Positions 13,866 through 36,474 of a stretch of DNA of 64,000 bases are shown here, piece after piece. The stretch lies in NCBI GenBank assembly GCA_004431415.1, contig QPMI01000015.1, positions 62,001 to 126,000 of the forward strand. Reading direction: 5' to 3'. A program made the position numbers and the translations under genes. The stretch is from Cyanophora paradoxa CCMP329. Lineage: Eukaryota; Plantae; Glaucophyta. How positions within the stretch are numbered: position 1 is the stretch's first letter; every line of letters begins with the position of its first letter. The notes under the pieces were generated by a model. The model saw nothing but the letters and a program-made list of their open reading frames with translations. It did no database searches and was not told the origin of the DNA.

Positions 13866-14158
13866 ACACATAGAGAAACGCGGCGTTTAAACCCTCGGCT
13901 TATCTTAATTGATCTTGTTTATATCTCTCGTATAATTTATATCAATCAATCGATAATCTGTGTGAAATCTATCGAATTCTTTAATATTTTGAATTTTGTG
14001 TAATTTATTGATAATTTATTGATGTTCTATTGTAAATTTATCTTAATTTCGATTTGTCTTACTTAAATCAATCTTGAATTTGTATAAGTTTCCGAATAAT
14101 ATAACTGGATCTTAATTAGATCTTGCCTCCGGTTTAAACGCCGCGTTTCTCTATGTGT
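13866..14158. repeat. 293-bp terminal unit bounded by perfect 28-bp inverted repeats (mirrored at 36182-36474)
   Basis: ACACATAGAGAAACGCGGCGTTTAAACC at 13866-13893 and its reverse complement at 14131-14158, enclosing a very AT-rich core. Confidence 0.92.
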
Positions 14159-14304
14159 GATTTTAACGCAATAAACGCGATTAATATGTATTTTATGCAA
14201 ATTCGATATAATCTCGATTGACGGAACATAAATTTGTGATATAATCACGATTGAAGTAGTCCACCGCCCATTCTATCGTAAAACGCAAAAATTCACACAG
14301 AGTT

Positions 14305-14850
14305 GCATTATGTCCAATTAAACAATCGATGAGATTGCGGCGTATTTTGTTGGAAGAGATGGTTACTGCATTATGTCCAATTAAACAATCGATGAAATAT
14401 CGGATGAAAATAATTCACTCGTTACGGCATTATGTCCAATTAAACAATCGTTGAGATTGCGGGAAACAAAAATGACCCCAGAGTTGCATTATGTCCAATT
14501 AAACAATCGATGAAATATCGGATGAAAATAATTCACTCGTTACTGCATTATGTCCAATTAAACAATCGATGAGATTGCGGCGTATTTTGTTGGAAGGGAT
14601 GGTTACTGCATTATGTCCAATTAAACAATCGATGAGATTGCGGTTCGATTTTTACTGTATCAAAAATGACCCCAGAGTTGCATTACGTCCAATTAAACAA
14701 TCGATGAGATTGCGGTTCGATTTTTACTGTATCAAAAATGACCCCAGAGTTGCATTATGTCCAATTAAACAATCGATGAGATTGGATTCTGTTTTTTACT
14801 GTATCAAAATTGTGTTTCAAGTGTAACATGTCCAATTAAACAGTCGATAA
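14305..14850 (+). repeat. Interspaced direct-repeat array in the left TIR: 8 copies plus 1 degenerate copy of GCATTATGTCCAATTAAACAATCGATGA
   Basis: Copies start at 14305, 14368, 14427, 14486, 14545, 14608, 14680, 14752 (degenerate ~14823); spacers 35, 31, 31, 31, 35, 44, 44, ~43 bp. Confidence 0.92.
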
Positions 14851-14855
14851 TCAAT

Positions 14856-14927
14856 GTGTAACAGGTGAATCCCAACGTGTAACAGGTGAATCCCAACGTG
14901 TAACAGGTGTAACAGGTAAATCCCAAC
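14856..14927 (+). repeat. Tandem 21-bp GTGTAACAGGTGAATCCCAAC iterons at the inner TIR edge
   Basis: Copies at 14856 and 14877, plus a variant at 14898-14927; the same motif forms the arms of the internal hairpins. Confidence 0.85.
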
Positions 14928-14945
14928 GTATGTTATAAATATACA

Positions 14946-15677
14946 ATGCCGCCGAAACGTAGAGGTGTTCCCGCTGGTGCTATGTCATATTCCGGCGGTG
15001 AAAGTCATGGATCTCTCAACACTACACCGATGAAATTCAACGGAATGAGCGAAGTGAAACCATCGCAACAGGAAGAAGACCCCTTAAATGCGGCGTATGA
15101 AGAAGCGCCCGGTGATAAAGCGCCGCAAACCTCCCAAAGTGAGCAACTGAACATTTCACCGGAAGTCTCGAAGATGAAGGCGGTCGGTGAAGGTGCGCGC
15201 CGGATTATCGGTGCTGCCGATGATCGTGAACTTGGTCTAAAAGATCTTTCACTCGCTCGCAAGGGTGAAGGTGTTTCCAAAGAATCCGACAAAGTAATTC
15301 AATCGATGGCTGGTGAAGTTACTTACAAGGTTGCGCCAACTCAAAACATCCACCGAATCCCGAAAGCGCAATGGGATGAGATGACCGCTAAATTAAAGGA
15401 TCTCGAAGCGAAATCAAGCGCTCTGGAACAGTATGTAACCGAGAAGAAGGAGAGATCGAAAATCAAGGAAATGCTGCGCAAAGAAGTATTCCGAATGGGT
15501 ATTACCGGTCTTCCCGATAAGCAGTTTATTGGTAAGAAGGAGACTCAAATTGATGAACAAGCGGTAGATGAGTTGAAGACAAAGACCCAAAAGGGAACAG
15601 TTGAACCTGGCGCAACCAAAGCGGAAGTCGACAAAGGTGTAGCTCCCACAGCATACAAGCGGAGAGTTTGGCTTTAA
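14946..15677 (+). CDS. Element hypothetical protein, 243 aa (basic N-terminus, predicted coiled coil)
   Basis: Clean ATG ORF just inside the TIR; MPPKRR start is NLS-like; K/E-rich helical stretch. Confidence 0.75.
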   Translation: MPPKRRGVPAGAMSYSGGESHGSLNTTPMKFNGMSEVKPSQQEEDPLNAAYEEAPGDKAPQTSQSEQLNISPEVSKMKAVGEGARRIIGAADDRELGLKDLSLARKGEGVSKESDKVIQSMAGEVTYKVAPTQNIHRIPKAQWDEMTAKLKDLEAKSSALEQYVTEKKERSKIKEMLRKEVFRMGITGLPDKQFIGKKETQIDEQAVDELKTKTQKGTVEPGATKAEVDKGVAPTAYKRRVWL

Positions 15678-15703
15678 TTATATATTGTTTAAAGAGGGAA
15701 TCA

Positions 15704-15922
15704 ATGGAGTTTCTGAAAAAGATCATTGAGATGTTTGAGATGCATTGCGTAACCGATTGTCACAATGACTGCTGCGATACGAAATTCGAAATGGATTTCT
15801 CAGATGGTGGAAGCGATGGAGGGCGAAGGCAATCGCAAGATTCGATAACAACTGAGACAGTCACCGTTACGGAAACTGAGACTGTCCGTCGCCGATCGTT
15901 TTCGCATAACGATCATAAATAA
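15704..15922 (+). CDS. Element small Cys-rich hypothetical protein (72 aa from ATG 15704)
   Basis: MEFLKKII...HCVTDCHNDCCD; packed tightly after the previous ORF. Confidence 0.6.
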   Translation: MEFLKKIIEMFEMHCVTDCHNDCCDTKFEMDFSDGGSDGGRRQSQDSITTETVTVTETETVRRRSFSHNDHK

Positions 15923-16127
15923 TATCTTTGGTTATGGTATCGAATGCTCGAAGAGATCTACGCCATCATACTATCGAAACGACAGATTTACGCCGTTAAA
16001 TCTGCAATTGAAGAACGTAGACACCAACTGGCTTTGGTCACCAAAAAATGACACCATAAACTACTTAAAGACGTAACGCATAATACAGAGTGGTAAAAGA
16101 TTTTCTCAACTATATATAAAGTGGAAC

Positions 16128-16364
16128 ATGGCGACTGTAATTCATATAACCGAAGACATGATTAGTGTTATCGAATTCGGCGAAGAAGAAGAGGAGACCC
16201 GCGCCAATTACAAGATGAGAGATGCTCTCAGGAAGCGAACGCTCTACAACGAAGACCCGGTTTATCGGGAGTATAAGAAGGCGCAATCGCTCGCTTCATA
16301 TTATCGTCGTAAGGAGCGGGAGGGAATTGAAAACAAGTCGCGGGGACGTCCACGAAAGTATTAA
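16128..16364 (+). CDS. Small basic protein with C-terminal AT-hook, likely DNA-binding
   Basis: Ends SRGRPRKY (RGRP AT-hook core); preceded by TATATATA. Confidence 0.7.
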   Translation: MATVIHITEDMISVIEFGEEEEETRANYKMRDALRKRTLYNEDPVYREYKKAQSLASYYRRKEREGIENKSRGRPRKY

Positions 16365-16570: not shown

Positions 16571-18392
16571 ATGAACGCTGCCGCCAAGAAATCCCTGAAA
16601 CGCCTTGTTGATTGGCTTCGTGAAGACGATGTCCGGTCTGAGAATATCGTAATCCCCGTCGATCCCGATACCAAAAAACCCCTCTTCGCCCATAAAGACG
16701 GATCGTGGACTTGGGATAAATTCGATGAAGCCCTGAAATCCGGTAAGTATACTGCTTGGGGCATTCTCGCTCGCAACATCGTGGTTATCGACTTCGACCA
16801 AGAGGAGGATTTCGCCAAATTCGAGGAGGAATATCCCGATGATTTCGGTGGTGTCAATCCTCTTGCTAAAACCAAAAAAGGATATCATGTTTACTTCTCT
16901 CGTCCTGCTGACTTCGATACTGTTAAGCTCTGGGATAAAGCGGGTGCTTTCAAAGGTTATCCTAAGATTGACTGTAAGACAGTTGCATCCACTGGAACGG
17001 CTGGTTTGATTAACGTTTCCCCAAGCCCCGGTAAAACTTGGATCAGAGAACCATGGGCGGAAGGCTGTGAGTTGATCGAACCGAGTGCTGAACTCCAAAA
17101 GTGGATGATTGAAAACTACCTTTTTCCGAAAGGCGGACACTCTTCTATTGATAGGAGCATTGAAGAGGATTTGCAGAAACACATTCTCCGGAAACTTGAA
17201 GAATTCGGTTTCATCTTACCCACAATCATTAATGAGACCGAGAAGGGTTACAGTTACGGAATCTGGGAGATGGATGAGACCGGGAAACGAATCTATCTGT
17301 GTTTGAGTTGCAGGGTTTGCCCGGCTTATCTTCAACGTGCTGTGCAATTCGCTCAGAGAGCGCTTCGTGATGAAGAGAATCGTGCGTCTTTGGAGGAGAG
17401 ATCACAGGTTCTTCTTGGTATCGCAAAGAAACTCAAACAGACTAATTACCGAACTTCTCTTCTGTCTGATCTCACAGTTCTGATGAACGATAAGACATTC
17501 TTCGAGAGACTTGATACTGTTACCAATGTGATTGGATTCACAAATGGCGTGTTTGATCTGAATTCTATGACTTTCCGAAGGGGACTCCCAGAAGACATGA
17601 TCAGTAAGACTGTTGGTTATGATTATTGCCCCGAGGTGGATTCTGTGAAAGTCGCCAAGATCCTTTCCATCTACTCTGACATCATCGAAGAGGAAATTGA
17701 GCGCAATTTCGTGATGGGTTCGATCGCTTTCTCTCTGAGTGGTCGCACAGATATTCAAAAGTTAGATCAAAGAGATTACAGGTGGTAACGAGATGAAGGT
17801 TCGCGCCCTGTTCAAAGATCCTGTTACCTACATTCCTATGGGTCAAATCTTCTTATCGACGAATGAGAACCTGGGGATGAGTAAACCCGATGCTGCGATT
17901 TACCGGCGACTCTCTTACTATCGTTTCTCTTGTGTCTTCAAGCCCAACCCTCAACCTGGTGAGAAGAAAGCGGATACTTCGCTTATGTCCATCATGAATG
18001 ACGACGAATACAAGATGGCTCAAATGTCGATCTTCTTGGACATGTGGAAGAAACAGGATCTTGCACAGCTGCTGATGAATCCGCCACAGTCTATCATCGA
18101 TCAGGGACTTGAATACTTTAATGATAACGATAAAATCGGGGAATGGCTCCGCAGCACTTATGAGAAGACCGGAAGCCGAAATGATTTCATTTCGAGTGAA
18201 TCTATCATTGCTGGCTATCGTTCTGTTGATGATAAAACCGATGCCACGAGTATTGGAAAGCGAGTCCGCGAAGTCTTTAATGTGAAGTCTGAAACTGTTC
18301 GAGAAAGAGGTCAGGTGAAGCGTGGTTACTTCGGACTGAAAAAAAAGATTATGATTCAGGACGACGACGACGACGTAGAGGCTCCCAACTAA
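16571..18392 (+). pseudogene. Prim-Pol primase / D5-like SF3 helicase, split into 16571-17788 and ~17766-18392, with the Walker A/B region missing
   Basis: Prim-Pol motifs VVIDFD and GYHVYF; D5_N-type IGFTNGVFDL...GLPEDMISKTVGYDY. The second frame reads IKEITGGNEMKVRALF...LSTN...AIYRRL. No GxxxxGK[ST] lies between SLSGRTDIQK and IKEITGG. Confidence 0.82.
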
Positions 18393-18459: not shown

Positions 18460-18551
18460 GTGTAACAGGTGTAACAGGTAAATCCCAAACTTTGCTCCTA
18501 GGGAGGTGAAAATCCGAAAACTTTGGGATTTACCTGTTACACCCGTTACAC
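18460..18551. promoter_or_regulatory. GTGTAACAG hairpin 1 (30-bp arms, 32-nt loop): candidate replication origin or 3'-end signal
   Basis: GTGTAACAGGTGTAACAGGTAAATCCCAAA ... TTTGGGATTTACCTGTTACACCCGTTACAC, 68 bp downstream of the helicase ORF; the structure is clear, the function is inferred. Confidence 0.7.
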
Positions 18552-18812: not shown

Positions 18813-21800
18813 ATGCCCCGCCAAACGAACAGACTGATCAAAGAAAAGAAAAATGAAATACTTGGATTGTTAGGAACTCTCTTAGTTACCGGTGAGATAA
18901 CCGAAGCGGAATTCGATAGAGAAGCCACCATCTTAGATAGACGACCGCGATTAGGACAACTCACTGAGATTGCAAATGACCTCTACAATCGCATGCAGAG
19001 GATGGAGGAGTTCATGGATGAAGGACAGAGATTAGGAGCAATTGACCCGGACATTGAAGATGGTCAAGCAATGAATCAAGCGTATTCGTGGTTGACCTAT
19101 CGCGCCCGAAACGAAGTTGTCGTGGATGCTATCGAATTCCTCGAAAGAATCGCACCAAGTCTACCGCAACGCATTAGAACCCGCTTAGATCAACTGAGAG
19201 CGGTTAAAGTCCGTCTTACTTTCGTTTGCAAATTCACCAAAGTAGGTAATCCGCGCATCTATATCACCAAATTCATTTACAGCGATTATTTCGTAATTAC
19301 CCGATCCCGCAACATAGACACAGAAGTTCGCAAAGCGTTACAGAAAATGCAAGAGGAAATGACGCAAGTGGATAGTTACCGTTTGGAGAAGATCGAAATA
19401 CTTAGAGGCATTATCATGTCTTATGCACCTGTGGGTGGTTGTTATTTCGCAACTCCGGAATGGATCGCATCCAAGAAGGCAACAGTGAATGTTAAGAATA
19501 TTGACGGTCAAGATTGCTTCAAGTATGCGATTTTGGCTTACCTGCATCGAAAGGACATTAACAAACACAAGAGCAATGAACCAAGCCAATACCGCCGATG
19601 GTTAAATGAACTCAATTTCGATGGTATTCAGTTTCCCATTGCATGTGATGCTGAGGTAATCGATCGTTTCGAAGAACTAAACCCCGATCTATCTATTAAC
19701 ATTTACGGAGCCGATAACGCCAAAGAGTGTTTCTTTCCTCTCCATCAATCAAGTAACCCAAGGAGAAAGACCAAGATAAACCTTTTACTTATCGAAAACA
19801 CCGAAGATGATCGGGGACACTACATCACTATCATGTCTTTTAGTCGTCTTCTGAAAACTACGTTTGATAAAGCATGTGATGGTCGCATTTATTACTGTGA
19901 AACCTGCCTGTCACGTTTTAGAACTCAGGAGAAATTAGACCTGCATGTTGAATCGAATCGCTGCATTGATTGGAGGGAGAGCAAAGGCAAATGCCCGAAG
20001 GCGGGAAGCGTAATTGAATTCGGTCTGCAACATCTACGTAAAACTGTGTGGCTTCCTGTGATCTGTTATGTTAAAGTTGAAGATCATTCAGTTGCTATCG
20101 ATGCTCAGAGGAGTAAACGTGAGATTAAAGCGGTTTCACTGAGAGTGGTAATGGGAGAAGAAGTGAGAGCATACCATTTCGAGGGAACCGATCCACTTGG
20201 TTCTCTCTTTGCTACTCTCCAAGATATCAGACCCGAAATCGTTGAGACGCTGTTTAGAAACATTCCCATGCATCCACTCACAGATGATCAGAAGGCGGAA
20301 TACAAGGTAACAAAACACTGTTACATTTGCTCTCAGAGATTCACCCACGAAAACTTCCCGGTTCGCGATCATTGCCACCAATCCGGCGATTTCATCGGAA
20401 AGGCATGCCGAAACTGTAACCTCCACAGGCGCATCTCAAAACAAACCAAAGTAGCTATCGTGGTCGATCACATGGATGAATGCGGGCATGGAATATTCCG
20501 CAAAATCGCCCAACAAGACGATAAACTACGTGTTGAGATTCTAAGCAAGAATTTCGATCAATACCTATCGCTTCAATGGGGCATGTGGAAGTTCATCGAT
20601 GCTTCCCATTTTATGGATTTCCAATCTGTTGATGTCGGCGATTTAATGAGAAAGTTTGAAGCATTCCGCAAATTGGCGTTTTCTCAATATGGATTGGATC
20701 CTGCACATTATGTTAGCGCACCGGGTCTCTCTTGGGACGCTATGCTCAAACATACGAAAGTTAAGATTGAACTAATCGATGATGTAGAGAAATACGAATT
20801 TGTTGAGAGAGCCATTCGCGGTGGATTTGCAACCATGCCCACACGATACGCAAAGGTAGAAAACCCCGACGATCATATAGTATTGTTGGATGCGAATAAT
20901 CTTTATGGGTATGCACTCAGTCAACCACTACCTATCGGAGATTATCGATGGGAAGACATCACAGAGGCACTTAAAGAGGTAGAGGGACGAAGCGCATTTA
21001 TTGAAGTTGATCTTGAATACCCCACAAACCTTGAAGATCATTACGATTTCCCACTGATCGTGAATAAAGAAGTGATCACCACTGAGATGCTTGGTGATTA
21101 TCAACGAAACCTATTAGATCTGACGGGCGAAAAGATCAGCAAAGACCCCAAACTTACGGCGACATTTACTCCCAAGAATAAATACGTGATTGCTCGACCT
21201 CTTCTTAATTACATCGTTAAGAAGGGTGTCGTTTTAAAAAAGATACATAAAGTTCTCTCATTCGCTACTTCCCCATTCATGAAATCATATATTGGTCTGA
21301 ATACTCTACTCAGGCACAAATCTACTAACCATTTCGAAAGCGACTTCTTTAAACTCATGAACAATGCGATTTATGGTAAATGCTTGGAATCTTGCAGGGG
21401 TCGCTCAACTGTCAAGATCGCTAACAGTGAGAAACTCTGTAAGAAATACGCAGCAAGTCCGCTTATCAAGGCGACCAATGTATTAAACGAAAATGCCGTT
21501 GCCTTTGAGATGTATTCGAAGCATGTTAATTTAGATAAGCCCGTAGCAATTGGCGCTTTTGTATTGGATTTCGCGAAACTCCATAATTATCGGTTCTTCT
21601 ATGATGTGGTAAGGAAGAAGTGGGAAACAGCTAAACTACTGTTCCACGATACAGATTCGTTCTGTCTGTTCCTGAAAACGGATAATCTAAACGAAGATAT
21701 GAAAGAGATAGGTGAGTTTCTCGATAGGAGCAATTACGATAAATCCCATCCTCTCGTGAGTATCAAAAACCGCATGGTTCCCGGTAAATATAAGAATGAG

Positions 21801-22094
21801 TTTCCAAACGCAAAGATCATGGAGTATGTGGGTCTGAGATCGAAACTCTATGCTTTCAGAACTGAGACCAACGAAAGAGTAAAGATGTCGGGGACTTCCT
21901 CGAAAGAGGTTCATTTTGACGATTTTAAGAGATGTCTGTTCGAAGGCATCATAAAAACAGTATCAGTAACAAACAAGCGAAGGCAAGACCACAACTTATA
22001 TGACTTGGAGAGCAGAAGGGTCGCTCTAAACCAACTCGATAGCAAACGGAAGATATCAGCCGACGGCATTCACAGCATTCCATTTGGTCTTTAA
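18813..22094 (+). CDS. polB: Protein-primed family B DNA polymerase (Polinton type) with vOTU-like protease, Zn finger and endonuclease VII-like insert
   Basis: Motif A LDANNLYG, motif B KLMNNAIYGK, motif C FHDTDS. Also DCFKYAILAYLH...GHY (Cys/His dyad), YCETC...H, and CYIC...VRDHCH...ACRNCNL. Confidence 0.96.
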   Translation: MPRQTNRLIKEKKNEILGLLGTLLVTGEITEAEFDREATILDRRPRLGQLTEIANDLYNRMQRMEEFMDEGQRLGAIDPDIEDGQAMNQAYSWLTYRARNEVVVDAIEFLERIAPSLPQRIRTRLDQLRAVKVRLTFVCKFTKVGNPRIYITKFIYSDYFVITRSRNIDTEVRKALQKMQEEMTQVDSYRLEKIEILRGIIMSYAPVGGCYFATPEWIASKKATVNVKNIDGQDCFKYAILAYLHRKDINKHKSNEPSQYRRWLNELNFDGIQFPIACDAEVIDRFEELNPDLSINIYGADNAKECFFPLHQSSNPRRKTKINLLLIENTEDDRGHYITIMSFSRLLKTTFDKACDGRIYYCETCLSRFRTQEKLDLHVESNRCIDWRESKGKCPKAGSVIEFGLQHLRKTVWLPVICYVKVEDHSVAIDAQRSKREIKAVSLRVVMGEEVRAYHFEGTDPLGSLFATLQDIRPEIVETLFRNIPMHPLTDDQKAEYKVTKHCYICSQRFTHENFPVRDHCHQSGDFIGKACRNCNLHRRISKQTKVAIVVDHMDECGHGIFRKIAQQDDKLRVEILSKNFDQYLSLQWGMWKFIDASHFMDFQSVDVGDLMRKFEAFRKLAFSQYGLDPAHYVSAPGLSWDAMLKHTKVKIELIDDVEKYEFVERAIRGGFATMPTRYAKVENPDDHIVLLDANNLYGYALSQPLPIGDYRWEDITEALKEVEGRSAFIEVDLEYPTNLEDHYDFPLIVNKEVITTEMLGDYQRNLLDLTGEKISKDPKLTATFTPKNKYVIARPLLNYIVKKGVVLKKIHKVLSFATSPFMKSYIGLNTLLRHKSTNHFESDFFKLMNNAIYGKCLESCRGRSTVKIANSEKLCKKYAASPLIKATNVLNENAVAFEMYSKHVNLDKPVAIGAFVLDFAKLHNYRFFYDVVRKKWETAKLLFHDTDSFCLFLKTDNLNEDMKEIGEFLDRSNYDKSHPLVSIKNRMVPGKYKNEFPNAKIMEYVGLRSKLYAFRTETNERVKMSGTSSKEVHFDDFKRCLFEGIIKTVSVTNKRRQDHNLYDLESRRVALNQLDSKRKISADGIHSIPFGL

Positions 22095-22279
22095 TATACT
22101 TGCTCAATACTTCTCTTTTTATTTTTTCGATCTCCAAGTAGCAGTAAACCACGGATCAGATGCAGCAACCATATGCACCTTAAACCGGGGTCGTTTGGAT
22201 CGATCGCAAAGTAGTTTGGTTTTGGGTGTTCTGTCCAAACCGGCTCGTCCATTATTAATATATTGAAAATAAAGTAAAG

Positions 22280-23578
22280 ATGCCCTCAGCACAGATAGGA
22301 TTGCGACCCGTCCCTAAAATTGTAAAGAAGAGCATGAAAGAAGACCAAGGGAACATGCTACCAATCACTATTCCGGTCGAAGAGAAGAACACACGAATCT
22401 TGAAGAAGTCTGAGATGGTTAAAGAACTGATCCCGGAGGCATTACCTACTGAGACTGTAACGAAAGAATCAAAGATCGCGAAGAAGTTTTACGATCCGCG
22501 CACAGGTTACAAGGGTTTCGGAGCAATGAGAAAGGAACTACCAGAGGAGGATTACAAGAAGATGAGAGAATGGTATGATAAACAGGAAGTCGTTCAGATA
22601 AACGCACCGACCCTTTCAAGAAAGAGAGACCCGATGATTCCAATTCGGCAACCTCTCGATACTTACGTAATCGATCTGCTCTTTTTCCCTGCATACAAGA
22701 ACCAAAACGACGGTTACGATACGTTCATGTCCGCGATGGAATCTACCTTACGCACGGGTTACATCATTCCGATGAGAGATAAGAGTGCTCTTACGGCGCT
22801 TGCGGCGTTTGAGCAGCTACAAAGAAGAGTTCCGCGACCTATCGCTCGCGTTCAGAGTGACAGCGGAAGCGAATTCACAAATACGATGTTCACGAATTAC
22901 CTTGCTAAGAAGTTCATAGACCATCAGATAAGTGATGTCGCAGATCATCGAAGCCAAGGTAGAATCGAAGCATTTAACAAGCAGATCAAACGATTGATCA
23001 CCAACTATTGCATAGCAAACAACACAGCGAGATTCTTTGATGTTTTGGGAGACATTGAGTATAACTATAACCATACCATCCACTCGGCAACCAAGAGGAA
23101 ACCCGCAGAAACCACAGATGAGCATTATAGAGAAATCATAGGTTTAGAAGATGAGAAGTTTAAGAAGTCGATGGCTTACTTAGACGGTATTCAAAAGGGC
23201 ATGTTTGTGCGGGTGAGAATAGAAAAGAATCCATTCGCTAAACAGGGTGTCAATTGGTCGCGGATCGTTTATACTGTCGAGGGTAGGGAGGGTTTTAAGT
23301 TTCGGTTACGAAATCCGAATGGTGAAATGGTCGATGGGAGGTTTGCTTTCCACGAACTGTTACCTATCAAAGGTGTAGAGTATCATGAGGCACCCACAGG
23401 TGATGCATTAGAACAAGCCAAAGAAGAAGCGCGGGTGGATTCAGCGATACGTAAGGAAGGCATCGAAAAAGCGGATGATGTCCCAGAAGAACCGCTTTTA
23501 CAAGCCAGATTAAAGAAAAAAAGTAAAATTACAAGGGAGTTAAAGAAACTTACAATTAATGGAACTGAAAAGCTCTAA
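22280..23578 (+). CDS. Retroviral-like (rve) DDE integrase
   Basis: Catalytic triad in YVIDLLF / VQSDSGSEF / GRIEAFN; YNHTIHSAT and FAKQGVNWS motifs typical of Polinton integrases; consistent with the 6-bp TSD. Confidence 0.95.
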   Translation: MPSAQIGLRPVPKIVKKSMKEDQGNMLPITIPVEEKNTRILKKSEMVKELIPEALPTETVTKESKIAKKFYDPRTGYKGFGAMRKELPEEDYKKMREWYDKQEVVQINAPTLSRKRDPMIPIRQPLDTYVIDLLFFPAYKNQNDGYDTFMSAMESTLRTGYIIPMRDKSALTALAAFEQLQRRVPRPIARVQSDSGSEFTNTMFTNYLAKKFIDHQISDVADHRSQGRIEAFNKQIKRLITNYCIANNTARFFDVLGDIEYNYNHTIHSATKRKPAETTDEHYREIIGLEDEKFKKSMAYLDGIQKGMFVRVRIEKNPFAKQGVNWSRIVYTVEGREGFKFRLRNPNGEMVDGRFAFHELLPIKGVEYHEAPTGDALEQAKEEARVDSAIRKEGIEKADDVPEEPLLQARLKKKSKITRELKKLTINGTEKL

Positions 23579-28100: not shown

Positions 28101-31100
28101 CAAAAACGCAATCGCTTTATTATCCTGATAATCTCCGAATCTCCGCTGAATTTGTCCATATTCGAAATCTTATCGTTTCTTCAAATGCTGTTATTCCGAA
28201 TTATACTACATCGAATGTGGTTCAAGGTTGGATTCAGAACCACACACACACAAAAGCGCAAATTATAGATTTTGCACACAATCATTTATGGGAGCATATA
28301 ACTGATAAACCTTTAACCTTCCCACCAACTACACACACTCATGATTATTCACAAATAACGAATAGTAATCACACTCACACTAAATCAGAGATTATAGATT
28401 TCGCCCACACACATTTATGGGAGCATATCACAAATCCTCCGTTAACCTTCCCACCTGATTCACATACTCATGATTACTCAACAATAACCAATAGCAACCA
28501 CAGACACCCATGGAATGAAATAGATGAAAAACCACGTTTTGCATCAACAGGTGATTTAGTAAATGGTGATGGATTTTATGGGGTTAGTTTCTATCAGAGT
28601 GATACCATCGCTGAAAGATTACAATTAAGTGAATACTATTTACACCGAAAAGGAATTGAAGCAGGCACCACAATGGATGGCGAATTATATATTAAACAAC
28701 CAACAAGAACAACATTAGTAGCAGCAGGTGGTGATGCATTGATAGACACCAAACCAGGTATATTTTTAACAAGTTATTATAATGCGGATATCCCGTTAAC
28801 ATCAGGATTACCACCGCTACCATCTGATCCAGTGGGTTATAGTCATAAAGACGCCATTTTACAAGTGAATGTAACAGATGTAAGCGCAACCGATGGATCA
28901 AGACCCAAAATAATATTTAGCCGTTCAAAATTCAATTACGCACCTCTTGCGGGACAACCAAAAGATGATTTCGGGAAATGTGAGATGGCGTGGATTAAAA
29001 CATTAGCAGGTGGCGCCTTAGAAGTTAATCAGAGAATGGCGGCGAAAAACTTACACAATGAGAACCTTTCGGGTGTGGTCACGGATGATTACATGCAAAG
29101 TAAAAACTATGTGGATGATACACATACTCATACCAAAGATCAGATCACAGATTTTGCCCATACTCACACCAAAGATCAGATCACAGATTTTGCGCATACT
29201 CACACAAAAGATCAGATCACAGATTTTGCGCATACTCACACAAAAGATCAGATCACAGATTTTGCCCACACTCACACCAAAGATCAGATCACAGATTTTG
29301 CGCATACTCACACCAAAGATCAGATCACAGATTTTGCCCATACTCACACAAAAGACCAAATTACAGACTTTGCGCATACTCACACAAAAGATCAGATCAC
29401 AGATTTTGCCCATACTCACACAAAAGATCAGATCACAGATTTTGCCCATACTCACACAAAAGATCAAATAACAGATTTCGCCCATTCTCATTTATGGGAG
29501 CATATCACAAATCCTCCATTAACCTTTCCTCCGGATTCACACACTCATGATTACTTGCCTCTCACAGGAGGAACAATTTCATCAAATCTTACGATTTCAT
29601 CCAATTTGAATGTTATAGAAAAAATTCAAATTGGAGACAAAAATACAAACATTGATGTATACTATGACGCACCCTATTATCCTGTTACTTCCAACACTGA
29701 CCCCGCCAAAACCACACCGAAATGCCTTTTAACAATGAGAATGGATGGGCTTCCTGTTAATACAAATCCTCAGTCACAGTTCATCCCCAATAGGGCAACA
29801 TCAGCTGTTCCGTTTATTTCAGGGATAACATTCCCATTTTTCGGGAGCAGTGGTGCTGTCGTAGCAAATCCTTTATTCAACAACCAAAAAGTAGTAAGAA
29901 AGTCAGGTGGATATACTGCCTCGGCATTCATTAACTATAATGTATCCGTTGATTGGTCAGAGGGCATGACACTGTTCTATGTAGGTAGTCACTACTCTGC
30001 ACCAAATTGGCAAACAGTTCATTTAGATTTTGGTTCTCCTGATGGAACCCATAAAATAGAGTTTGGGTATGGATCGTCATTATCATTTGGTTTGTATTCA
30101 TTCACAAGTAATGGAGTGGGTTACACAGCCCCACGAGTGAACACCAATTATGCTTCCCATTCAGCTAATTATTGGGACACCACCATAACTTCAAACAGCA
30201 TAACCTTTGGAATCAGAGGACAAGATGTAGGAACCTTTACAGGAACAAATTACCTTCCACCTTCAACTTTCAGTAGGATGGGTGTTAACTATTTCATAGG
30301 TGATATAGCCGAATACATCATTTTCAATAGAGCATTAACGTTTGAAGAGAAGCAAAGGGTGAGATACTATATTCAGGATTATTATGGCTTCCCAAAAACT
30401 CAATCTCTCTATTATCCTGAGAATCTACGCATTTCTTCGGACTTTGTTCATATTAGAAACTTAATAGTAAGTTCAAATGCTACCATTCCAAACTACACAA
30501 CATCCAATGTGGTGCAGGGATGGATACAAAACCACACTCATGCTTGGTCGAATATCACAGATAGACCTTCAATATTCCCACCTACAACCCATGAGCATAC
30601 ATGGGATGAGATCAATAACCAACCTGAATTCTCAAAGGTCGAACCTGTGAATATGGGGGTTTCCCTTTATAAATCCTGCAATATTGCGGAAAGAACTATT
30701 TTGAATGAGCATTATGTTCACCTCAAAGGGGCTGATGCGGGCAGTGCAATGACAGGACCTCTATTTGTCCGAAGCTTGCCTCAATTCCGAGTGCAAGATA
30801 TGGCGTATGTTAACCCGGGTGACACTTTCCCGAATATCTATGTGACAAGCTATTACAAAAACGATATTCCAAAGGATGGGTTCGGTGTTCCTCCAATCCT
30901 GCGGGTTATCAAGACTTCTCAGCAGCTGTCCATGTGAATGTGACAGATGTAAGCAGCTTGGATGGATCAAGACCTAAGATAGTTTTCACTCGGGATAAAC
31001 TCAATTATATTCCACTTGTTGGGCAACCAACTGATAATTACAGTAAAGCTGAGATCGCTTGGATTAAAACGCTATCAGGTGGGGCTATTGAAGCCAATCA

Positions 31101-32502
31101 GAGAATGGCGGCTAAAAACCTGCACAACGAGACCCTTTCAGGTGTGGTCACAGACGATTACCTGCAAAGCAAAAATTATATAGATGAAACCGAATTGGGT
31201 GTTGCACTTCAAACTCACAGTCATGCATGGAACAATATCACAGATAAACCTTTAACATTCCCTCCTGCAACCCATACTCATGCTTGGTCAAATATCACAG
31301 ATAGACCTAATCTTGCAACTGTTGCAACGACAGGAAATTACGATGATCTGATAAATAAACCAACATACACATCCCCTATCAACTTTGATGCCACAAATGG
31401 TCTTTCAACAGATCGCACAGGCGATTGGAGATTTTTCACATTTATATCTCCTTACTCAGGAGCAAACACATGGGCTTCTGGTGATGAAGATTGTAGTGGC
31501 TACAAGATGTTATGGACTGTCCCTGCGGGAATGAAAACATGCTATATCTTCTATGTGTGTCTATATAATAGCAGATACTTCGATGTTGTGGGAGTTTATC
31601 CATCAACGAATTCTTATACACTTTCGAGAGTAAATGCTTATTCTCCTGGTATTGACCCAAGTGTAGAGTATAGGCAATATGTCGGAGTGAATTGTGAAGG
31701 GCTGAGTAAAGTGGGTGTTCAAGGGCGAATAGGAAGGATTTACCTTGTGGGTCTTGTAGGTTGGAGCAAGAACCCCACTGTATCCTCACATAGCGGCTTC
31801 TTGCATTGGGATAACATTTATGGGAAACCAACAGCTTCTACAACTGTCGGACCTCACTCTCACACTAAATCAGATATCACCGACTTTGCCCATACTCACA
31901 CAAAGGCAAATATTACAGATTTCGCCCATACTCATACTAAATCAGAAATCACAGATCTCCCAAGTTTAGACCCATTCACAGCCAATACAATCACTGCAAA
32001 TAATACTATGTATGTAGGATCAGGTCAAATAGTAGCCCCTGCATCGCCTACAAATGAGGAAACTTGGTTCTTCCACAATTCAGCAAACTTTTATGATAAA
32101 ACCCTACTCTGTCGCGGAAATGCTTATGCAAGAGCATTTTATGCAATGAATGCGGGAACCACGAATACAATTAGCCAACTTCCAACTTGGTATGATATAG
32201 AAAGACGATTTAAGTCAGGAAAATTTCAAGCTTACAGTGGTGTTATAAGCGCAGGTCAGAGAACACAGCATGCACAGGTTTTGAATTGGGATCCTGCTTT
32301 TTACACTAAGACACCTGTTGTAACTGCCACACTTGAAGGAACTCCTGCAACAAACCCCGGGGATGTAGATTTTAGAATTGGAATCTCAAACTCCACATCT
32401 ACCTATACAACAATTTATGTGACATTCATAGCATCCCCTACTCTATCTGAAAGCCGAAGTATCACTTGCACAATCCATTGGACAGCATATGGAGTCCCAT
32501 AA
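25163..32502 (+). CDS. Giant fibre/adhesin-like protein (~2450 aa if joined), split by a -1 frameshift near 30890 into 25163-30937 and ~30890-32502
   Basis: Numerous HxH repeats and YLPL.GGTI motifs, an NTKDLG...W motif, two LamG-like domains (FIGD.AEYI.FNRAL), three copies of a GVS.Y...DGSRPK module, and a C-terminal TPVVTAT...HWTAYG lectin/fibre-tip-like domain. Homology to the other module copies continues across the frame change (SNPAGYQDFSAAVHVNVTDVS). Confidence 0.8.
29123..29482 (+). repeat. 10 x 36-bp coding tandem repeat (HTHTKDQITDFA)
   Basis: Ten identical peptide units with synonymous codon variation. Confidence 0.95.
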
Positions 32503-32551
32503 TAAATGCATATTTCGCATTATTTTTCTTTCCTTCTTAGTAAAAGAAGCA

Positions 32552-33394
32552 ATGGGTGAATACAATCGTGTGCAATTACCCGTTTACGCATTGGGTGCGC
32601 CCGCCGTTCACTTTCGACAACACGAAGTAGCCGACGAAATCCGCGGTGTGGAATCTACGGAGCGGGCTAATTCCGCGAATGCATTTGATAAAAACAGTAT
32701 GATACGTGTGAAAGAACTACGCGCCGATAAGAATTCGGGAGTGGTTAAAACGACTCAGCTTCTTGTAACAAATGCGAATTTCAACGCGGGTATCGGGCAA
32801 CCTGACGCATGGGGTGTGGATATTAGAACGTTAGATTTTGACGGAGAACGTGCCGCCGCTGTTGTCCGATCGGGAGGCGCTGTTATTGGTGGCGGTTGTC
32901 GTGTGTCGGGTATGCTTGCATCCTCCGCTTCTGTCACCGATATTCCCGATACTCTACCTGAGCATGCGGACAATCCGCAACGAATCCGTATGTATACTCC
33001 ATGTGGAGATTATCCATATGTGTTTGGAATGGTTAGAGTTGCGGTAGATAACGTAAATGCAACACAACCCGATGGAATTATGGGAAATTGGTTATTACCT
33101 AATATTGCTATTCCTAAATCTATTGAGTCTATATGTCGTTCACAAAATGGAATTATCGGACCGGCTTATACTTTCTTTGTTCAAGGAATCGGACGCGGTA
33201 GAGGTTGGGTGGAATTCGACAACCAGAACCCCGCTACGTTTAATGTTTGGACAACAGAAGTAGGAGGTTACGATATTCTCATTTTCGGAATGCGAACAGA
33301 TCCAGCCGCTGTGGCGGCTACACGTGGTCTCAATCCTGATAACAACCTAAATAACTTCTACGATGATCCGTTCCCAGGAGATCCCACACCATAA
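32552..33394 (+). CDS. Hypothetical protein, 280 aa, paralogue of the next gene
   Basis: RVKELRADKNSGVVKTTQLLVTNANFNA shared with 33414-34259; first ATG clear of the fibre gene is 32552. Confidence 0.8.
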   Translation: MGEYNRVQLPVYALGAPAVHFRQHEVADEIRGVESTERANSANAFDKNSMIRVKELRADKNSGVVKTTQLLVTNANFNAGIGQPDAWGVDIRTLDFDGERAAAVVRSGGAVIGGGCRVSGMLASSASVTDIPDTLPEHADNPQRIRMYTPCGDYPYVFGMVRVAVDNVNATQPDGIMGNWLLPNIAIPKSIESICRSQNGIIGPAYTFFVQGIGRGRGWVEFDNQNPATFNVWTTEVGGYDILIFGMRTDPAAVAATRGLNPDNNLNNFYDDPFPGDPTP

Positions 33395-33413
33395 TTATGT
33401 TTTAATATATTAA

Positions 33414-34259
33414 ATGGCGGCGCCCGCTCCACCTGAACGCATCTTAACAGCGCAACTATCATTAGCCGCGCCGGCAAATCACGTATTACAACATGCCGTT
33501 ATCGATAATGTCGATGGTTTAGAATCTACGGAACTTGCACCTACTCTCAATACTTTTGGTGATACACACAAATTGCGACTGAAAGAGTTGAGATGTGACA
33601 AAAATAACGGCATTGTGAAAACTACGAAACTCCTTGTAACAAATGCAAACTTTAACGCTTTTTATGGAGATCCAGATAGTTATAATGATGATAACAAGGT
33701 AACAAACTTTGCTTATGAATCGAGAAACGGAGCAATTAAATGTAGATCGGGTGGCGCATATATCGGGGACGGACTAAGAGTTGGTGGTATCATTGGAGCG
33801 CCTCTTTTGGTGAATGATCAACCAAACCCCGATGATGCGAACACAAGAATAAGGACGTATTGCCCAGGCATGAATGAACCTTACCTAATTAAAATCTATA
33901 CAATCGTTATTAGTTTACAAACGGCGGTAGCCGATGTTTTAGAACCCTTAGGAAATCATTATAGATATAGAGACACGATACCAGAGGACATTTACGCATT
34001 ATGTAGAAGAACCGACGGAGCAAGACCGCGCCTTACGATACACATTATCCCCATAGATAATTTCGGTCAAGCGTTTCACTCAATACCTCTTTTAGATACG
34101 CAAGACAACCAATTTATAATAAGAGCGACACAACTTGGAAATTATAGAGTCATTATGTATGCCGAAAGAAACGACGCAATCGCAACGGCTAACCGATTCG
34201 GTCAATATCTTAATACCAATCTATACAATCCAATCGGCGGCAGTGATCCGCTACCATAA
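33414..34259 (+). CDS. Hypothetical protein, 281 aa, paralogue of the previous gene (possible virion/fibre-associated)
   Basis: RLKELRCDKNNGIVKTTKLLVTNANFNA; beta-rich C-terminus GNYRVIMYAERND parallels GYDILIFGMRTD. Confidence 0.8.
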   Translation: MAAPAPPERILTAQLSLAAPANHVLQHAVIDNVDGLESTELAPTLNTFGDTHKLRLKELRCDKNNGIVKTTKLLVTNANFNAFYGDPDSYNDDNKVTNFAYESRNGAIKCRSGGAYIGDGLRVGGIIGAPLLVNDQPNPDDANTRIRTYCPGMNEPYLIKIYTIVISLQTAVADVLEPLGNHYRYRDTIPEDIYALCRRTDGARPRLTIHIIPIDNFGQAFHSIPLLDTQDNQFIIRATQLGNYRVIMYAERNDAIATANRFGQYLNTNLYNPIGGSDPLP

Positions 34260-34280
34260 ATCTACGGTATATATAGAGGA

Positions 34281-34520
34281 ATGGATGAAAAAACAAAACG
34301 ATTTATTGAGTCTGCGATTATGGTTCATGGACTTGATAAATTCGATTACACCGAAACTGTCTATAAGAAGGCACAAGAGAAGGTATCCGTGAGATGCCTA
34401 CAATGTAATAAAGTCTTTCAGACCTACGGATTTAATCACATTAAGGGATCGGGTTGCCGACAGTGTTCCAAGAAACATTCTCATGCATACAGAAAAAGAC
34501 TACATGGGGAATCGTTATAG
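34281..34520 (+). CDS. Stand-alone zinc-ribbon protein (DUF723-like, normally associated with viral homing endonucleases)
   Basis: FI.SA..VHG.DKFDY....Y.....KV...C..C...F......H..G.GC..C pattern. Confidence 0.8.
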   Translation: MDEKTKRFIESAIMVHGLDKFDYTETVYKKAQEKVSVRCLQCNKVFQTYGFNHIKGSGCRQCSKKHSHAYRKRLHGESL

Positions 34521-34738
34521 AAGAGAAACCGATTATGTTATATTTTGATTAAAGTTTCGAAAGAGAAATGAGCATCTTTCCGCATTTACCTTTGGTTATT
34601 ATGCAAGTATCGAAGCAATTCGGACACGTCTTATGATAATGGAGCATTATGATATCGACCAACTCAAACGGAAATACTTTTGCTAAGATCGTTCGCATCC
34701 TACCAATTTCGTTTTTAATTTTTCTATATAATTCATAA

Positions 34739-35137
34739 ATGAATCATCGCGGTTTCCATGTTATGTTAGATTACAAGTTCAATCATCCATTGATGGTGGG
34801 ATTGGACAACATAGACACCACAACGAAGTGGTTAATGCAATTTTTTCAATCTATTATTCAAGAACAAGGTATCCGAGTTGTTCACAAGCATTGCGAGATT
34901 TTCGATGGTGGTGTTTCGCCACCGGGTTTTGCGATGGTATTACTTCTCGATGAGAGCCATTTAACCGCTCATTGTTATTCGGATCAAGGAATGTTAGCGA
35001 TTGATGTATTCACTTGCGGAACAGAAGCGCAAAGTAAGACCTCCGTAATATCTAAATTGATAGATGAGAGAATAACAGAGATCTTTTCAGGGTTGGAGAA
35101 AGCGGAGAAGCAGATAGCAGCGCGATTTCCGAGTTAA
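34739..35137 (+). CDS. speD: Prokaryotic-type (class 1B) pyruvoyl-dependent S-adenosylmethionine decarboxylase proenzyme
   Basis: GFHVMLD N-terminus; G...VLLLDESHLTAHCY (E-S self-cleavage site); AIDVFTCG; 132 aa. Confidence 0.9.
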   Translation: MNHRGFHVMLDYKFNHPLMVGLDNIDTTTKWLMQFFQSIIQEQGIRVVHKHCEIFDGGVSPPGFAMVLLLDESHLTAHCYSDQGMLAIDVFTCGTEAQSKTSVISKLIDERITEIFSGLEKAEKQIAARFPS

Positions 35138-35187
35138 TCACACTGTGATTTTGAAGAAATATAACATGTATTATTGAATATCGTCAT

Positions 35188-35442
35188 GTGTAACAGGTGT
35201 AACAGGTAAATCCCAAACTTCGCTCCTAGGAGGTGAAAAATCCAAAACTTTGGGATTTACCTGTTACACCCGTTACACCTTGGGATTCACCTGTTACATC
35301 TATCAAACAAAGCATTAATATATTCGATTCCTTACATTGATTATAGTGTCATGTAACAGGTGTAACAGGTGTTTCCCAAACTTTCCTCCTAGGGAGGCCA
35401 AAAATCCAAAACTTTGGGATTTACCTGTTACACCTGTTACAC
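35188..35442. promoter_or_regulatory. GTGTAACAG hairpins 2 (35188-35278) and 3 (35352-35442, overlapping the right TIR edge)
   Basis: Near-identical arms and loop (CTCCTAGG.AGG) to 18460-18551. Confidence 0.7.
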
Positions 35443-36474
35443 GTTGGGATTCACCTGTTACACGTTGGGATTCACCTGTTACACATTGATTATCGACTGT
35501 TTAATTGGACATGTTACACTTGAAACACAATTTTGATACAGTAAAAAACAGAATCCAATCTCATCGATTGTTTAATTGGACATAATGCAACTCTGGGGTC
35601 ATTTTTGATACAGTAAAAATCGAACCGCAATCTCATCGATTGTTTAATTGGACGTAATGCAACTCTGGGGTCATTTTTGATACAGTAAAAATCGAACCGC
35701 AATCTCATCGATTGTTTAATTGGACATAATGCAGTAACCATCCCTTCCAACAAAATACGCCGCAATCTCATCGATTGTTTAATTGGACATAATGCAGTAA
35801 CGAGTGAATTATTTTCATCCGATATTTCATCGATTGTTTAATTGGACATAATGCAACTCTGGGGTCATTTTTGTTTCCCGCAATCTCAACGATTGTTTAA
35901 TTGGACATAATGCCGTAACGAGTGAATTATTTTCATCCGATATTTCATCGATTGTTTAATTGGACATAATGCAGTAACCATCTCTTCCAACAAAATACGC
36001 CGCAATCTCATCGATTGTTTAATTGGACATAATGCAACTCTGTGTGAATTTTTGCGTTTTACGATAGAATGGGCGGTGGACTACTTCAATCGTGATTATA
36101 TCACAAATTTATGTTCCGTCAATCGAGATTATATCGAATTTGCATAAAATACATATTAATCGCGTTTATTGCGTTAAAATCACACATAGAGAAACGCGGC
36201 GTTTAAACCGGAGGCAAGATCTAATTAAGATCCAGTTATATTATTCGGAAACTTATAAAAATTCAAGATTGATTTAAGTAAGACAAATCGAAATTAAGAT
36301 AAATTTACAATAGAACATCAATAAATTATCAATAAATTACACAAAATTCAAAATATTAAAGAATTCGATAGATTTCACACAGATTATCGATTGATTGATA
36401 TAAATTATACGAGAGATATAAACAAGATCAATTAAGATAAGCCGAGGGTTTAAACGCCGCGTTTCTCTATGTGT
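35414..36474 (-). repeat. Right terminal inverted repeat (1061 bp)
   Basis: Mirror of 13866-14926; mirrored ORFs 14569-14826 and 35514-35771 translate identically. Confidence 0.96.
35490..36035 (-). repeat. Mirror copy of the interspaced repeat array in the right TIR
   Basis: TCATCGATTGTTTAATTGGACATAATGC repeated with the same spacers in reverse order. Confidence 0.92.

What the first reader, a model, noticed from the sequence alone, without database searches (positions are those of the whole stretch)
13866..36474. Complete Polinton-like element with entry/adhesion genes but no recognisable capsid module: candidate helper-dependent satellite or new element class
Seen: both ends intact (TSD, 1061-bp TIRs), pPolB and integrase full length, and about half the element spent on a fibre-like protein, two paralogous beta-rich proteins and a lipase-lectin fusion. 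Known: Polintons and Polinton-like viruses normally carry a double jelly-roll major capsid, penton and A32/FtsK packaging ATPase, and often an adenain protease. I see no Walker A motif in any ORF, and no unassigned ORF is large enough for a typical double jelly-roll capsid. Inference: the element may replicate and integrate on its own but borrow capsids from a helper while supplying its own receptor-binding and membrane-breaching proteins. Alternatively it is an internally deleted copy.
Basis: partly seen in the sequence, partly recalled or inferred. Interest (0 to 1): 0.85.

Follow-up and report, generated by a model that had tools for sequence, protein, structure and literature searches.

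The report
Capsid-less algal provirus keeps its spikes
A 22.6-kb virus-like element integrated in what is likely a freshwater alga's genome has its own polymerase, integrase and predicted attachment spikes but no recognisable capsid or packaging gene, has multi-copy sisters, and likely travels in shells borrowed from other resident viruses; loss of the capsid genes from this copy alone is not excluded.

Summary
Observation confirmed: 6-bp target-site duplication, 1061-bp TIRs, pPolB, rve integrase, 47% entry genes, and no capsid, penton, ATPase or protease detected. No unassigned ORF exceeds 301 aa and no gap exceeds 420 bp.

Corrections: this copy is damaged. Its primase-helicase lacks about 300 and 215 bases that sister contigs carry, probably including the Walker A, and the fibre has a private frameshift. 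The pPolB has lost its exonuclease, as has a 44%-identical relative. ORF9/ORF10 share an N-terminal domain with C1q-headed proteins, so they are likely trimeric spikes, not pentons.

Short-read contigs run at 5-19x single-copy depth. They bridge 3 of 13 gene junctions without extra genes; the rest are untested. ORF9/10 differences are mostly synonymous (13 of 15).

The likely host, Cyanophora paradoxa, has 366 published capsid genes, and glaucophyte PLVs carry the same lipase, AdoMetDC and integrase families. Best reading: a helper-packaged, capsid-less PLV lineage (0.5); rival: simple deletion derivative (0.3). Capsid-less Polintons are known, so this is a variant, not a new class. The scan noted other capsid-less and capsid-coding elements in this genome, but no look-alike of this one.

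The parts
13860..13865 (.). left target-site duplication (6 bp)
   Evidence: identical hexamer at 36475-36480
13866..14926 (+). left TIR, 1061 bp; holds 59-72-bp iterated repeats
   Evidence: one mismatch to the right TIR
13866..14158 (.). terminal 293-nt imperfect palindrome closed by a perfect 28-bp stem (mirror copy at 36182-36474)
   Evidence: predicted fold -45.3 kcal/mol; the terminal 28-mer recurs inverted, ending at 14158
14946..15677 (+). ORF1, 243 aa, highly charged, no family; possibly a core or DNA-binding protein (inference)
   Evidence: no Pfam/PHROG/NCBIfam/Atlas hit; 65% full-length relative P0003; 32% charged
15704..16364 (+). two small ORFs (72 aa at 15704, 78 aa at 16128); the second ends in an AT-hook-like RGRP (recalled motif)
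   Evidence: no Pfam hit
16571..18392 (+). AEP primase-polymerase / D5-like SF3 helicase, broken in this copy by deletions at about 17254 and 17763
   Evidence: Prim-Pol, D5_N; PHROG primases; sister contigs carry about 301 and 215 more bases (tables 5 and 8)
18461..18551 (.). about 92-bp palindromic repeat block after the helicase; copies at 35189-35279 and 35352-35483, half-site at 14857-14926; candidate origin or terminator
18813..22094 (+). protein-primed PolB, 1093 aa; polymerase motifs A-C readable, exonuclease I/II motifs lost and about 95 residues absent
   Evidence: phrog_1907; alignment with 7 IMG/VR pPolBs; same loss in P0014, 44% identity over 100%
22280..23578 (+). rve integrase, 432 aa; D-D-E residues readable in the sequence
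   Evidence: PF00665 E 4e-4, below cut-off; phrog_956 E 1e-11
23575..25113 (-). patatin phospholipase fused to an F5/8 (discoidin) domain, 512 aa; GGGxRG, GTSTG and DG motifs present
   Evidence: PF01734 E 4e-23, PF00754 E 1.5e-5
25163..32502 (+). giant fibre gene (about 2,445 codons) with phage-tail repeats, a 12-residue tandem array and a 0.9-kb internal duplication; one-base frameshift near 30889 in this copy
   Evidence: PHROG tail and tail-fibre families, best E 7e-27; PTR; frameshift absent from contigs of 4 of 4 runs
32552..33394 (+). ORF9, predicted spike protein (280 aa from the second ATG; frame opens at 32489)
   Evidence: 37% identical to ORF10; N-terminal domain shared with C1q-bearing proteins
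33414..34259 (+). ORF10, predicted homotrimeric spike protein, 281 aa
   Evidence: borderline trimer model, score 0.33 vs best control 0.00, pLDDT 36-42
34281..34520 (+). small zinc-finger / homing-endonuclease-type domain ORF; sister contigs carry one more base at 34492
   Evidence: DUF4379; phrog_4605, phrog_681; table 4
34739..35137 (+). S-adenosylmethionine decarboxylase, 132 aa, ESH motif present
   Evidence: PF02675 E 1e-12; TIGR03330
35414..36474 (-). right TIR
36475..36480 (.). right target-site duplication

Best explanation
This is a damaged copy of a multi-copy Polinton-like element that has no recognisable capsid, penton or packaging-ATPase gene and is likely packaged in trans in the capsids of other Polinton-like viruses resident in the same alga, which it would decorate with its own predicted spikes, fibre and lipase. 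Shown: intact ends with a 6-bp TSD, the gene list, no room for a capsid gene, sister contigs at 5-19x single-copy depth, and private lesions in this copy's helicase and fibre. Inferred: intact sisters excise and copy a linear genome with the exonuclease-less pPolB plus the AEP-SF3 helicase, then insert with the rve integrase. On co-activation with a capsid-coding PLV they borrow MCP, penton and ATPase. ORF9/ORF10 trimers dock on the borrowed vertex through an N-terminal domain also found in other proteins annotated in the same host species, and fibre plus patatin-discoidin mediate binding and membrane breach. This copy would need a helicase from a sister as well.
For: No MCP, penton, ATPase or protease hit from Pfam, PHROG or NCBIfam. 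None from profiles built on IMG/VR Polintons against all six frames (best E 0.25) or by hhalign (probability at most 1.3%). Unassigned ORFs are at most 301 aa and gaps at most 420 bp, whereas the six C. paradoxa MCP entries listed in PMC10120064 Table S2 are 308-465 aa, three of them 413-465. The ORF9/10 N-terminal 120 residues recur in front of C1q heads (P0004, P0005 above cut-off; P0008 below) or other C-termini. Two such relatives (P0007, with a 5-member cluster, and P0008) are named C. paradoxa in EukProt. The trimer model passes at 0.33 vs best control 0.00 (mark reached by 21 of 30 solved pairs and 0 of 23 single chains; runs agree in at least 42% of contacts; pLDDT at least 36), with like residues of 53-76 and 99-129 touching across copies. 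18 long contigs lie at 4.6-19x the depth of a single-copy flank, and three junctions are bridged at 13-19x with no extra gene. Listed differences from sisters are synonymous in 19 of 29 entry-gene sites and 13 of 15 in ORF9/10, against 23% expected (p = 8e-4 at 35%). A helper pool is published: 366 MCP genes in C. paradoxa. Among 156 glaucophyte elements there are 139 A32-ATPase, 97 penton, 89 lipase, 85 rve, 66 AdoMetDC and 49 pPolB hits (PMC12220804 Table S6).
Against: Only 3 of 13 junctions are shown fully bridged; the contig tables were cut to 32 of 5,838 and 32 of 4,973 rows. This copy has private deletions, so a private loss of a capsid block is possible. About 23 kb plus a roughly 5-kb module matches the 28-kb PLVs that earlier, unchecked notes describe in this genome. 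The synonymous excess comes from ORF9/10 only (fibre 4 of 10, patatin 2 of 4), rests on the best-supported 80 of 1,759 variant rows, and could predate capsid loss. Both AlphaFold2 monomer models failed (pLDDT 31 and 33), so no fold search excludes a jelly roll. My capsid profiles missed 2 of 6 of their own members, and C. paradoxa MCPs are divergent (2 of 156 hit by the HMMs in Table S6). The trimer pass is borderline, low in pLDDT and outside the tool's two-copy calibration; on eukaryotes only 1 of 7 proteins without an older solved relative passed. No particle, expression or helper has been observed, and the host name is not independently tested.
Confidence: 0.5

Rival explanations
1. Simple deletion derivative: most sisters with these TIRs are ordinary capsid-coding PLVs of about 28 kb, and this copy (or a small recent clade) lost the MCP-penton-ATPase block; the entry genes are just what was left.
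For: The copy has at least two private deletions and two private one-base losses. 10 of 13 junctions are not shown fully bridged. The cargo matches capsid-ascertained glaucophyte PLVs. Loose ends inside the TIR point to other subfamilies sharing the termini. TIR/TSD-retaining elements without structural genes are reported in Halocafeteria.
Against: No joint with extra letters and no paired loose ends at an intergenic site among the listed rows, while the 215-base helicase loss was listed. No capsid or ATPase remnant in any frame. Several unbridged junctions look native: overlapping integrase/patatin stops, a 49-bp divergent promoter that shares a 15-nt motif with the integrase leader, and gaps of 19-21 bp.
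Confidence: 0.3
2. Capsid-less and never packaged: the family amplified inside the nucleus as a self-synthesising transposon, and the entry genes are vestiges now decaying.
For: Polintons that lack MCP, ATPase and protease together are known (9 elements, PMC4028283), and a transposon-like lifestyle is proposed for such elements. The fibre is frameshifted here and shows no synonymous excess in the few listed sites (4 of 10).
Against: 10.5 kb of entry genes stay open in sister contigs where visible. ORF9/10 differences are 13 of 15 synonymous. Relatives of ORF1, ORF10 and the exonuclease-less pPolB at 44-65% identity occur in other public assemblies, which suggests a long-lived lineage moving between hosts, although their gene content is unknown.
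Confidence: 0.12
3. The element has an unrecognised coat (ORF9/ORF10 or ORF1 forming an unconventional virion), or rides inside a giant virus as transpovirons do.
For: ORF9/10 have penton-like length and composition and no confident fold. PgVV was first reported as capsid-less and later shown to have an MCP. ORF1 is conserved at 65% over its whole length without any family.
Against: The ORF9/10 N-domain pairs with swappable C1q-type heads and models as an intertwined trimer. ORF1 is 32% charged with 14% V/I/F/Y/W against 21-28% in the jelly-roll candidates. There is no packaging ATPase, and no giant virus of this host was examined.
Confidence: 0.08

Closest known systems
Glaucophyte (Cyanophora paradoxa) Polinton-like viruses, PMC10120064 and PMC12220804
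   Same: rve integrase, pPolB, D5/AEP primase-helicase, lipase (discoidin occurs in 11 glaucophyte PLVs, alone, paired or fused to patatin), phage-tail-repeat fibre, AdoMetDC, no maturation protease (0 hits among 156)
   Different: Those elements were collected by their MCP genes and mostly carry an A32 ATPase (139 hits among 156) and a penton (97); none is found here. Their sequences could not be compared directly.
Polintons/Mavericks, including those lacking MCP, ATPase and protease (PMC4028283, PMC8097293)
   Same: Long TIRs, 6-bp TSD, AC-type dinucleotide end, pPolB about 35% identical over its best segment to adintovirus-type PolBs, rve integrase
   Different: Exonuclease lost, separate AEP-SF3 helicase, 293-nt terminal palindrome, and 47% of the length in entry genes without a capsid. 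The passages I read on capsid-less Polintons do not mention retained fibres.
Halocafeteria seosinensis endogenous PLV/virophage fragments with TIRs and TSDs but no structural genes (10.64898/2026.07.28.741278)
   Same: Retained TIR/TSD, terminal palindromes in some subtypes, proposed dependence on complete copies
   Different: Described as fragments lacking most core genes, with palindromes mostly in non-pPolB elements. The element here keeps replication, integration and entry modules and is multi-copy.
Mavirus (virophage), as described in PMC11161782
   Same: pPolB without most of the exonuclease paired with a separate SF3 helicase gene; rve integrase and a lipase gene (these two recalled)
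   Different: Mavirus encodes MCP, penton, ATPase and protease (recalled). The pPolB here has Polinton-type nearest relatives, so the exonuclease loss is likely independent.
Transpovirons
   Same: Capsid-less linear DNA with TIRs carried by another virus (recalled; PMC11161782 passage for the helicase)
   Different: Transpovirons use a Tlr1-like pPolB-SF1 helicase fusion and, from recall, have no integrase or fibres; this element has AEP-SF3, rve and its own spikes.

Membership tests
Polinton/Maverick | long terminal inverted repeats | tested here: met
   1061 bp, one mismatch
Polinton/Maverick | 6-bp target-site duplication | tested here: met
   criterion from PMC8097293 passage
Polinton/Maverick | protein-primed PolB | tested here: met
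   exonuclease degenerate
Polinton/Maverick | rve integrase | tested here: met
   (below Pfam cut-off)
Polinton/Maverick and PLV | [quoted passage not shown] | tested here: not met
   no unassigned ORF above 301 aa, no gap above 420 bp; no profile hit; profiles missed 2 of 6 own members
Polinton/Maverick and PLV | single jelly-roll penton | tested here: inconclusive
   no profile hit; ORF9/10 look like spikes, but monomer models failed and no fold search was possible
Polinton/Maverick and PLV | A32/FtsK packaging ATPase | tested here: not met
   no coding Walker A; ATPase profile best E 0.25, while it recovers 8 of 8 left-out members at E <= 3e-5
Polinton/Maverick | Ulp1/adenain maturation protease | tested here: not met
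   absence is normal for glaucophyte PLVs (0 hits among 156)
Helper-dependent satellite of resident PLVs | capsid-less gene order shared by independent copies | tested here: inconclusive
   3 of 13 junctions bridged at 13-19x; others not shown in truncated tables
Helper-dependent satellite of resident PLVs | genome found inside helper capsids | not testable with these tools
   needs particle purification
Transpoviron | Tlr1-like pPolB-SF1 helicase fusion | tested here: not met
   separate pPolB and AEP-SF3
Transpoviron | carried by a giant virus | not testable with these tools
   no host genome or virus isolate held
Virophage (mavirus-like) | virophage MCP, penton, ATPase and protease | tested here: not met
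   no virophage-specific profiles were available, so this rests on ORF sizes and general libraries

The most novel reading that the evidence does not exclude
An old, self-replicating and self-integrating satellite lineage of Polinton-like viruses that has given up the capsid but keeps and selects its own receptor-binding spikes, fibre and lipase, re-arming a helper's shell through a shared docking domain. It would be a eukaryotic counterpart of capsid-pirating phage satellites, invisible to all surveys that find such elements by their capsid gene.
Probability: 0.3. Interest if true: 0.8.

Novelty: new variant of a known kind. Interest (0 to 1): 0.52.

Why it matters
Surveys of integrated Polinton-like viruses start from the capsid gene (PMC10120064 passages), so capsid-less but otherwise complete families are uncounted. 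If this family is packaged in trans and brings its own entry proteins, it adds a fourth layer of parasitism (host, giant virus, PLV, PLV satellite). It would also give a tractable test, in a cultured alga, of whether integrated Polinton-like elements make and share particles. If it is a deletion derivative, it is an ordinary step in the known virus-to-transposon continuum.

Tried and rejected
No whole genome is held, so sister copies and a helper could not be read directly.

Structure: AlphaFold2 on ORF9 alone and on ORF10 with a 9-row alignment gave pLDDT 31 and 33; no fold search was run on these models. ESM Atlas gave only sub-0.9 leads for ORF9 (unnamed phage proteins, 0.86-0.87) and nothing for ORF1. 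PDB sequence searches with the spike alignment and two fibre pieces found nothing useful, nor did GenBank phages with ORF10.

Related loci: IMG/VR scans with patatin, integrase, spike alignment, pPolB pair, ORF1, primase and the terminal 20-mer found no relative (7 of 8 scans). The eighth gave 8 ordinary Polinton-type contigs at 30-37% pPolB identity, each with a Walker A ORF; MCP, penton and protease labels on them are my assignments by size, position and recall. JGI metagenome scans gave nothing for the spikes and five distant, short or degraded pPolB loci.

Expression: no RNA holder was listed for 31200-35200, which is no evidence on expression.

Earlier findings: look-ups by sequence, relatives or words found no look-alike.

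Dropped rows: 14 variant rows at 30385-30460 were left out of the synonymous count because they lie in the fibre's internal duplication and may be paralogous; with them the count is 31 of 43.

Rejected: a sequencing artefact or one-off insertion (multi-copy in 4 of 4 runs); a capsid gene hidden by frameshifts (no gap large enough); 'new class' (published precedents).
Full report
OBSERVATION. The element runs from 13866 to 36474 (22,609 bp, GC 0.41 against 0.55 and 0.69 in the flanks). The same hexamer flanks both ends, and the TIRs are 1061 bp with one mismatch. Each TIR starts with an AC dinucleotide repeat, and its first 293 nt form an imperfect palindrome closed by a perfect 28-bp stem. The listed genes cover 18,794 of the 20,487 bp between the TIRs, and the largest gap is 420 bp. 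In order: ORF1 (243 aa), two small ORFs, an AEP/D5 primase-helicase in pieces, pPolB (1093 aa), rve integrase (432 aa), patatin-F5/8 on the minus strand (512 aa), a giant fibre, ORF9, ORF10, a small zinc-finger ORF and AdoMet decarboxylase. Patatin, fibre, ORF9 and ORF10 fill 10,568 bp (47%).

NO CAPSID MODULE IN THIS COPY. Pfam (16 proteins), PHROGs and NCBIfam gave no capsid, penton, packaging ATPase or protease. The one Walker A-like string in six frames is non-coding. I built profiles from ORFs of IMG/VR Polinton-type contigs fetched with the pPolB (the labels are my assignments). Against all six frames the best E-values were 0.25 (ATPase), 0.68 (MCP), 2.3 (penton) and 0.51 (protease). hhalign of ORF9/10, ORF1 and the fibre's first 470 residues gave at most 1.3% probability. 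Leave-one-out recovered 8 of 8 ATPases and 5 of 5 proteases but only 4 of 6 MCPs and 4 of 6 pentons clearly. The capsid profiles are therefore weak for divergent families, and the stronger argument is size: nothing unassigned exceeds 301 aa.

ORF9 AND ORF10 ARE LIKELY SPIKES. They are 37% identical. A profile search of 1.84 billion representatives returned 6 proteins, of which five match only the first 120-135 positions. P0004 and P0005 carry a C1q domain behind that stretch, and P0008 a weaker one; C1q heads are trimeric (recalled). P0007 (5-member cluster) and P0008 are named Cyanophora paradoxa in EukProt. Three copies of ORF10 passed the complex test narrowly: score 0.33, best of 3 controls 0.00. 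The mark was reached by 21 of 30 solved pairs and 0 of 23 single chains (eukaryotes 17 of 29, and 1 of 7 without an older relative). The runs agree in at least 42% of contacts, pLDDT is 36-42, the calibration held two copies only, and my alignment was not used. Contacts join like residues in 53-76 and 99-129, as in an intertwined shaft. Both AlphaFold2 monomer models failed, so a jelly roll is not excluded by structure.

THE COPY IS DAMAGED; THE FAMILY IS MULTI-COPY. 20 of 24 listed runs hold part of the stretch, 19 of them at half the words or more and all from one organism code. A host flank (37985-40000) lies on one contig per run without differences, at depths 58, 78, 38 and 19. Eighteen long contigs on the element lie at 4.6-19 times that; the tool warns that depth is no copy number, so I read this as 'about ten or more'. 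Sister contigs carry about 301 more bases at 17254 and 215 more at 17763, and one more base at 30889 and at 34492. The second helicase gap matches about 78 missing profile positions in the P-loop region. The absent Walker A is thus probably a private lesion, and this copy cannot make a whole helicase or fibre. Of the 13 intergenic junctions, 3 are bridged by listed contigs at 13-19x with no added gene: ORF1 to the next ORF, pPolB to integrase, and ORF9 to ORF10. About five are partly covered, and the rest do not appear in tables cut to 32 of 5,838 and 32 of 4,973 rows. No listed joint or pair of loose ends marks a missing block at an intergenic site, but 556 and 747 loose ends were not shown. 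Of the 80 displayed single-base differences (of 1,759), 68 fall in ORFs. After dropping 14 that lie in the fibre's internal duplication, entry genes have 19 synonymous of 29 (ORF9/10 13 of 15, fibre 4 of 10, patatin 2 of 4). pPolB has 9 of 13 and integrase 8 of 9, against 23% expected by chance.

REPLICATION. Against 7 IMG/VR pPolBs the enzyme keeps the vOTU-region Cys/His and polymerase motifs A-C (motif names recalled), but has lost the exonuclease I and II motifs and about 95 residues. P0014, the best of 1,135 hits (44% identity, 100% coverage; the next listed hits cover under 50%), has the same loss, so this is a lineage trait. PMC11161782 (passages) notes that exonuclease loss goes with gain of a helicase in mavirus and PLVs; the AEP-SF3 here fits that rule. 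A 92-bp palindromic repeat block follows the helicase and recurs twice near the right end and as a half-site in the left TIR. An earlier unchecked note (e1-10595310) describes such blocks in two other viruses of this genome and reads them as origins; I did not test that.

HOST AND HELPER. Earlier notes name the host as C. paradoxa and describe 28-28.5-kb PLVs with palindromic ends, sibling viruses sharing a capsid gene, and other capsid-less elements in this genome (unchecked). PMC10120064 (passages and supplement rows) lists 366 MCP genes in two clusters for C. paradoxa, found by MCP search. PMC12220804 (passages, section 13 part 1, Table S6) reports discoidin alone, paired or fused to patatin in Rhizaria and glaucophyte PLVs (n = 11 for the latter), and a PTR-PTR-H-lectin fibre in one C. 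paradoxa PLV. For 156 glaucophyte elements it gives 139 A32 ATPase, 97 penton, 89 lipase, 85 rve, 66 AdoMetDC, 49 pPolB, 40 D5_N and 0 protease hits. The cargo is therefore ordinary for this host's PLVs; only the missing morphogenesis block is unusual.

MECHANISM. Best reading (0.5): intact sisters replicate and integrate with their own enzymes and are packaged by capsid-coding PLVs of the same nucleus, adding their own spikes, fibre and lipase. The ends, gene content, multi-copy state and lesions are shown; trans-packaging, docking and entry are inferred. Rivals: deletion derivative of capsid-coding sisters (0.3), unpackaged transposon with vestigial entry genes (0.12), unrecognised coat or giant-virus carriage (0.08).

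LITERATURE. Six full-text searches were read as listings. Precedents for capsid loss: PMC4028283 (passages; nine Polintons without MCP, protease and ATPase) and 10.64898/2026.07.28.741278 (passages and section 5; TIR/TSD-retaining fragments that may depend on complete copies, and terminal palindromes). I also read passages of PMC8097293, PMC6431247, 10.64898/2026.10.13.758929 and 10.64898/2026.06.19.733378. In these searches and passages I saw no description of a capsid-less Polinton-like family that keeps a large entry module. The bioRxiv supplements (for example the Halocafeteria element table) and the figshare annotations of PMC10120064 were not seen and could hold one.

VERDICT. Real feature; a new variant of a known kind; interest 0.52. 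The satellite reading would merit 0.8 if long-read copies and particles confirm it (probability 0.3 for the full claim of an old, selected, re-arming satellite).

Noticed in passing
window 13963, 14250-14340, 14715 and mirror sites 36000-36377: Contigs diverge from the TIR after its first 100-470 bases (loose ends), suggesting other subfamilies that share the termini; these are candidate helpers or capsid-coding sisters.
   Followed up: no
window 22268-22282 (+) and 25111-25125 (-): An identical 15-nt AT-rich motif ends in the start codon of both the integrase and the patatin gene; a similar leader precedes pPolB. Possible shared promoter class.
   Followed up: partly
window 13300-13865 and 36475-38300: Both flanks are very high-depth host repeats, so the element sits inside another repeat; a gag-like low-complexity ORF at 11428-12120 (-) has no Pfam hit (the label is my impression).
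   Followed up: partly
window 45779-53319: Host tandem triplication with about 3.6-kb period and 73-91% identity, carrying F-box genes.
   Followed up: no
window 52974-53915: SufE-domain gene (PF02657, E 3e-39).
   Followed up: no
window 55600-64000: Very GC-rich (up to 0.83) gene in many pieces that reads like an SMG1-type PI3K-related kinase (recalled impression; the one frame tested had no Pfam hit).
   Followed up: no
P0007, P0010-P0013, P0008: Six proteins named C. paradoxa fall in the two clusters whose representatives share the ORF9/10 N-terminal domain with different heads; their loci could reveal the helper's capsid type.
   Followed up: partly
L010 10001-13163: A frameshifted Polinton-type pPolB among retroelement-like remnants in a 34.5-kb metagenome contig.
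   Followed up: no
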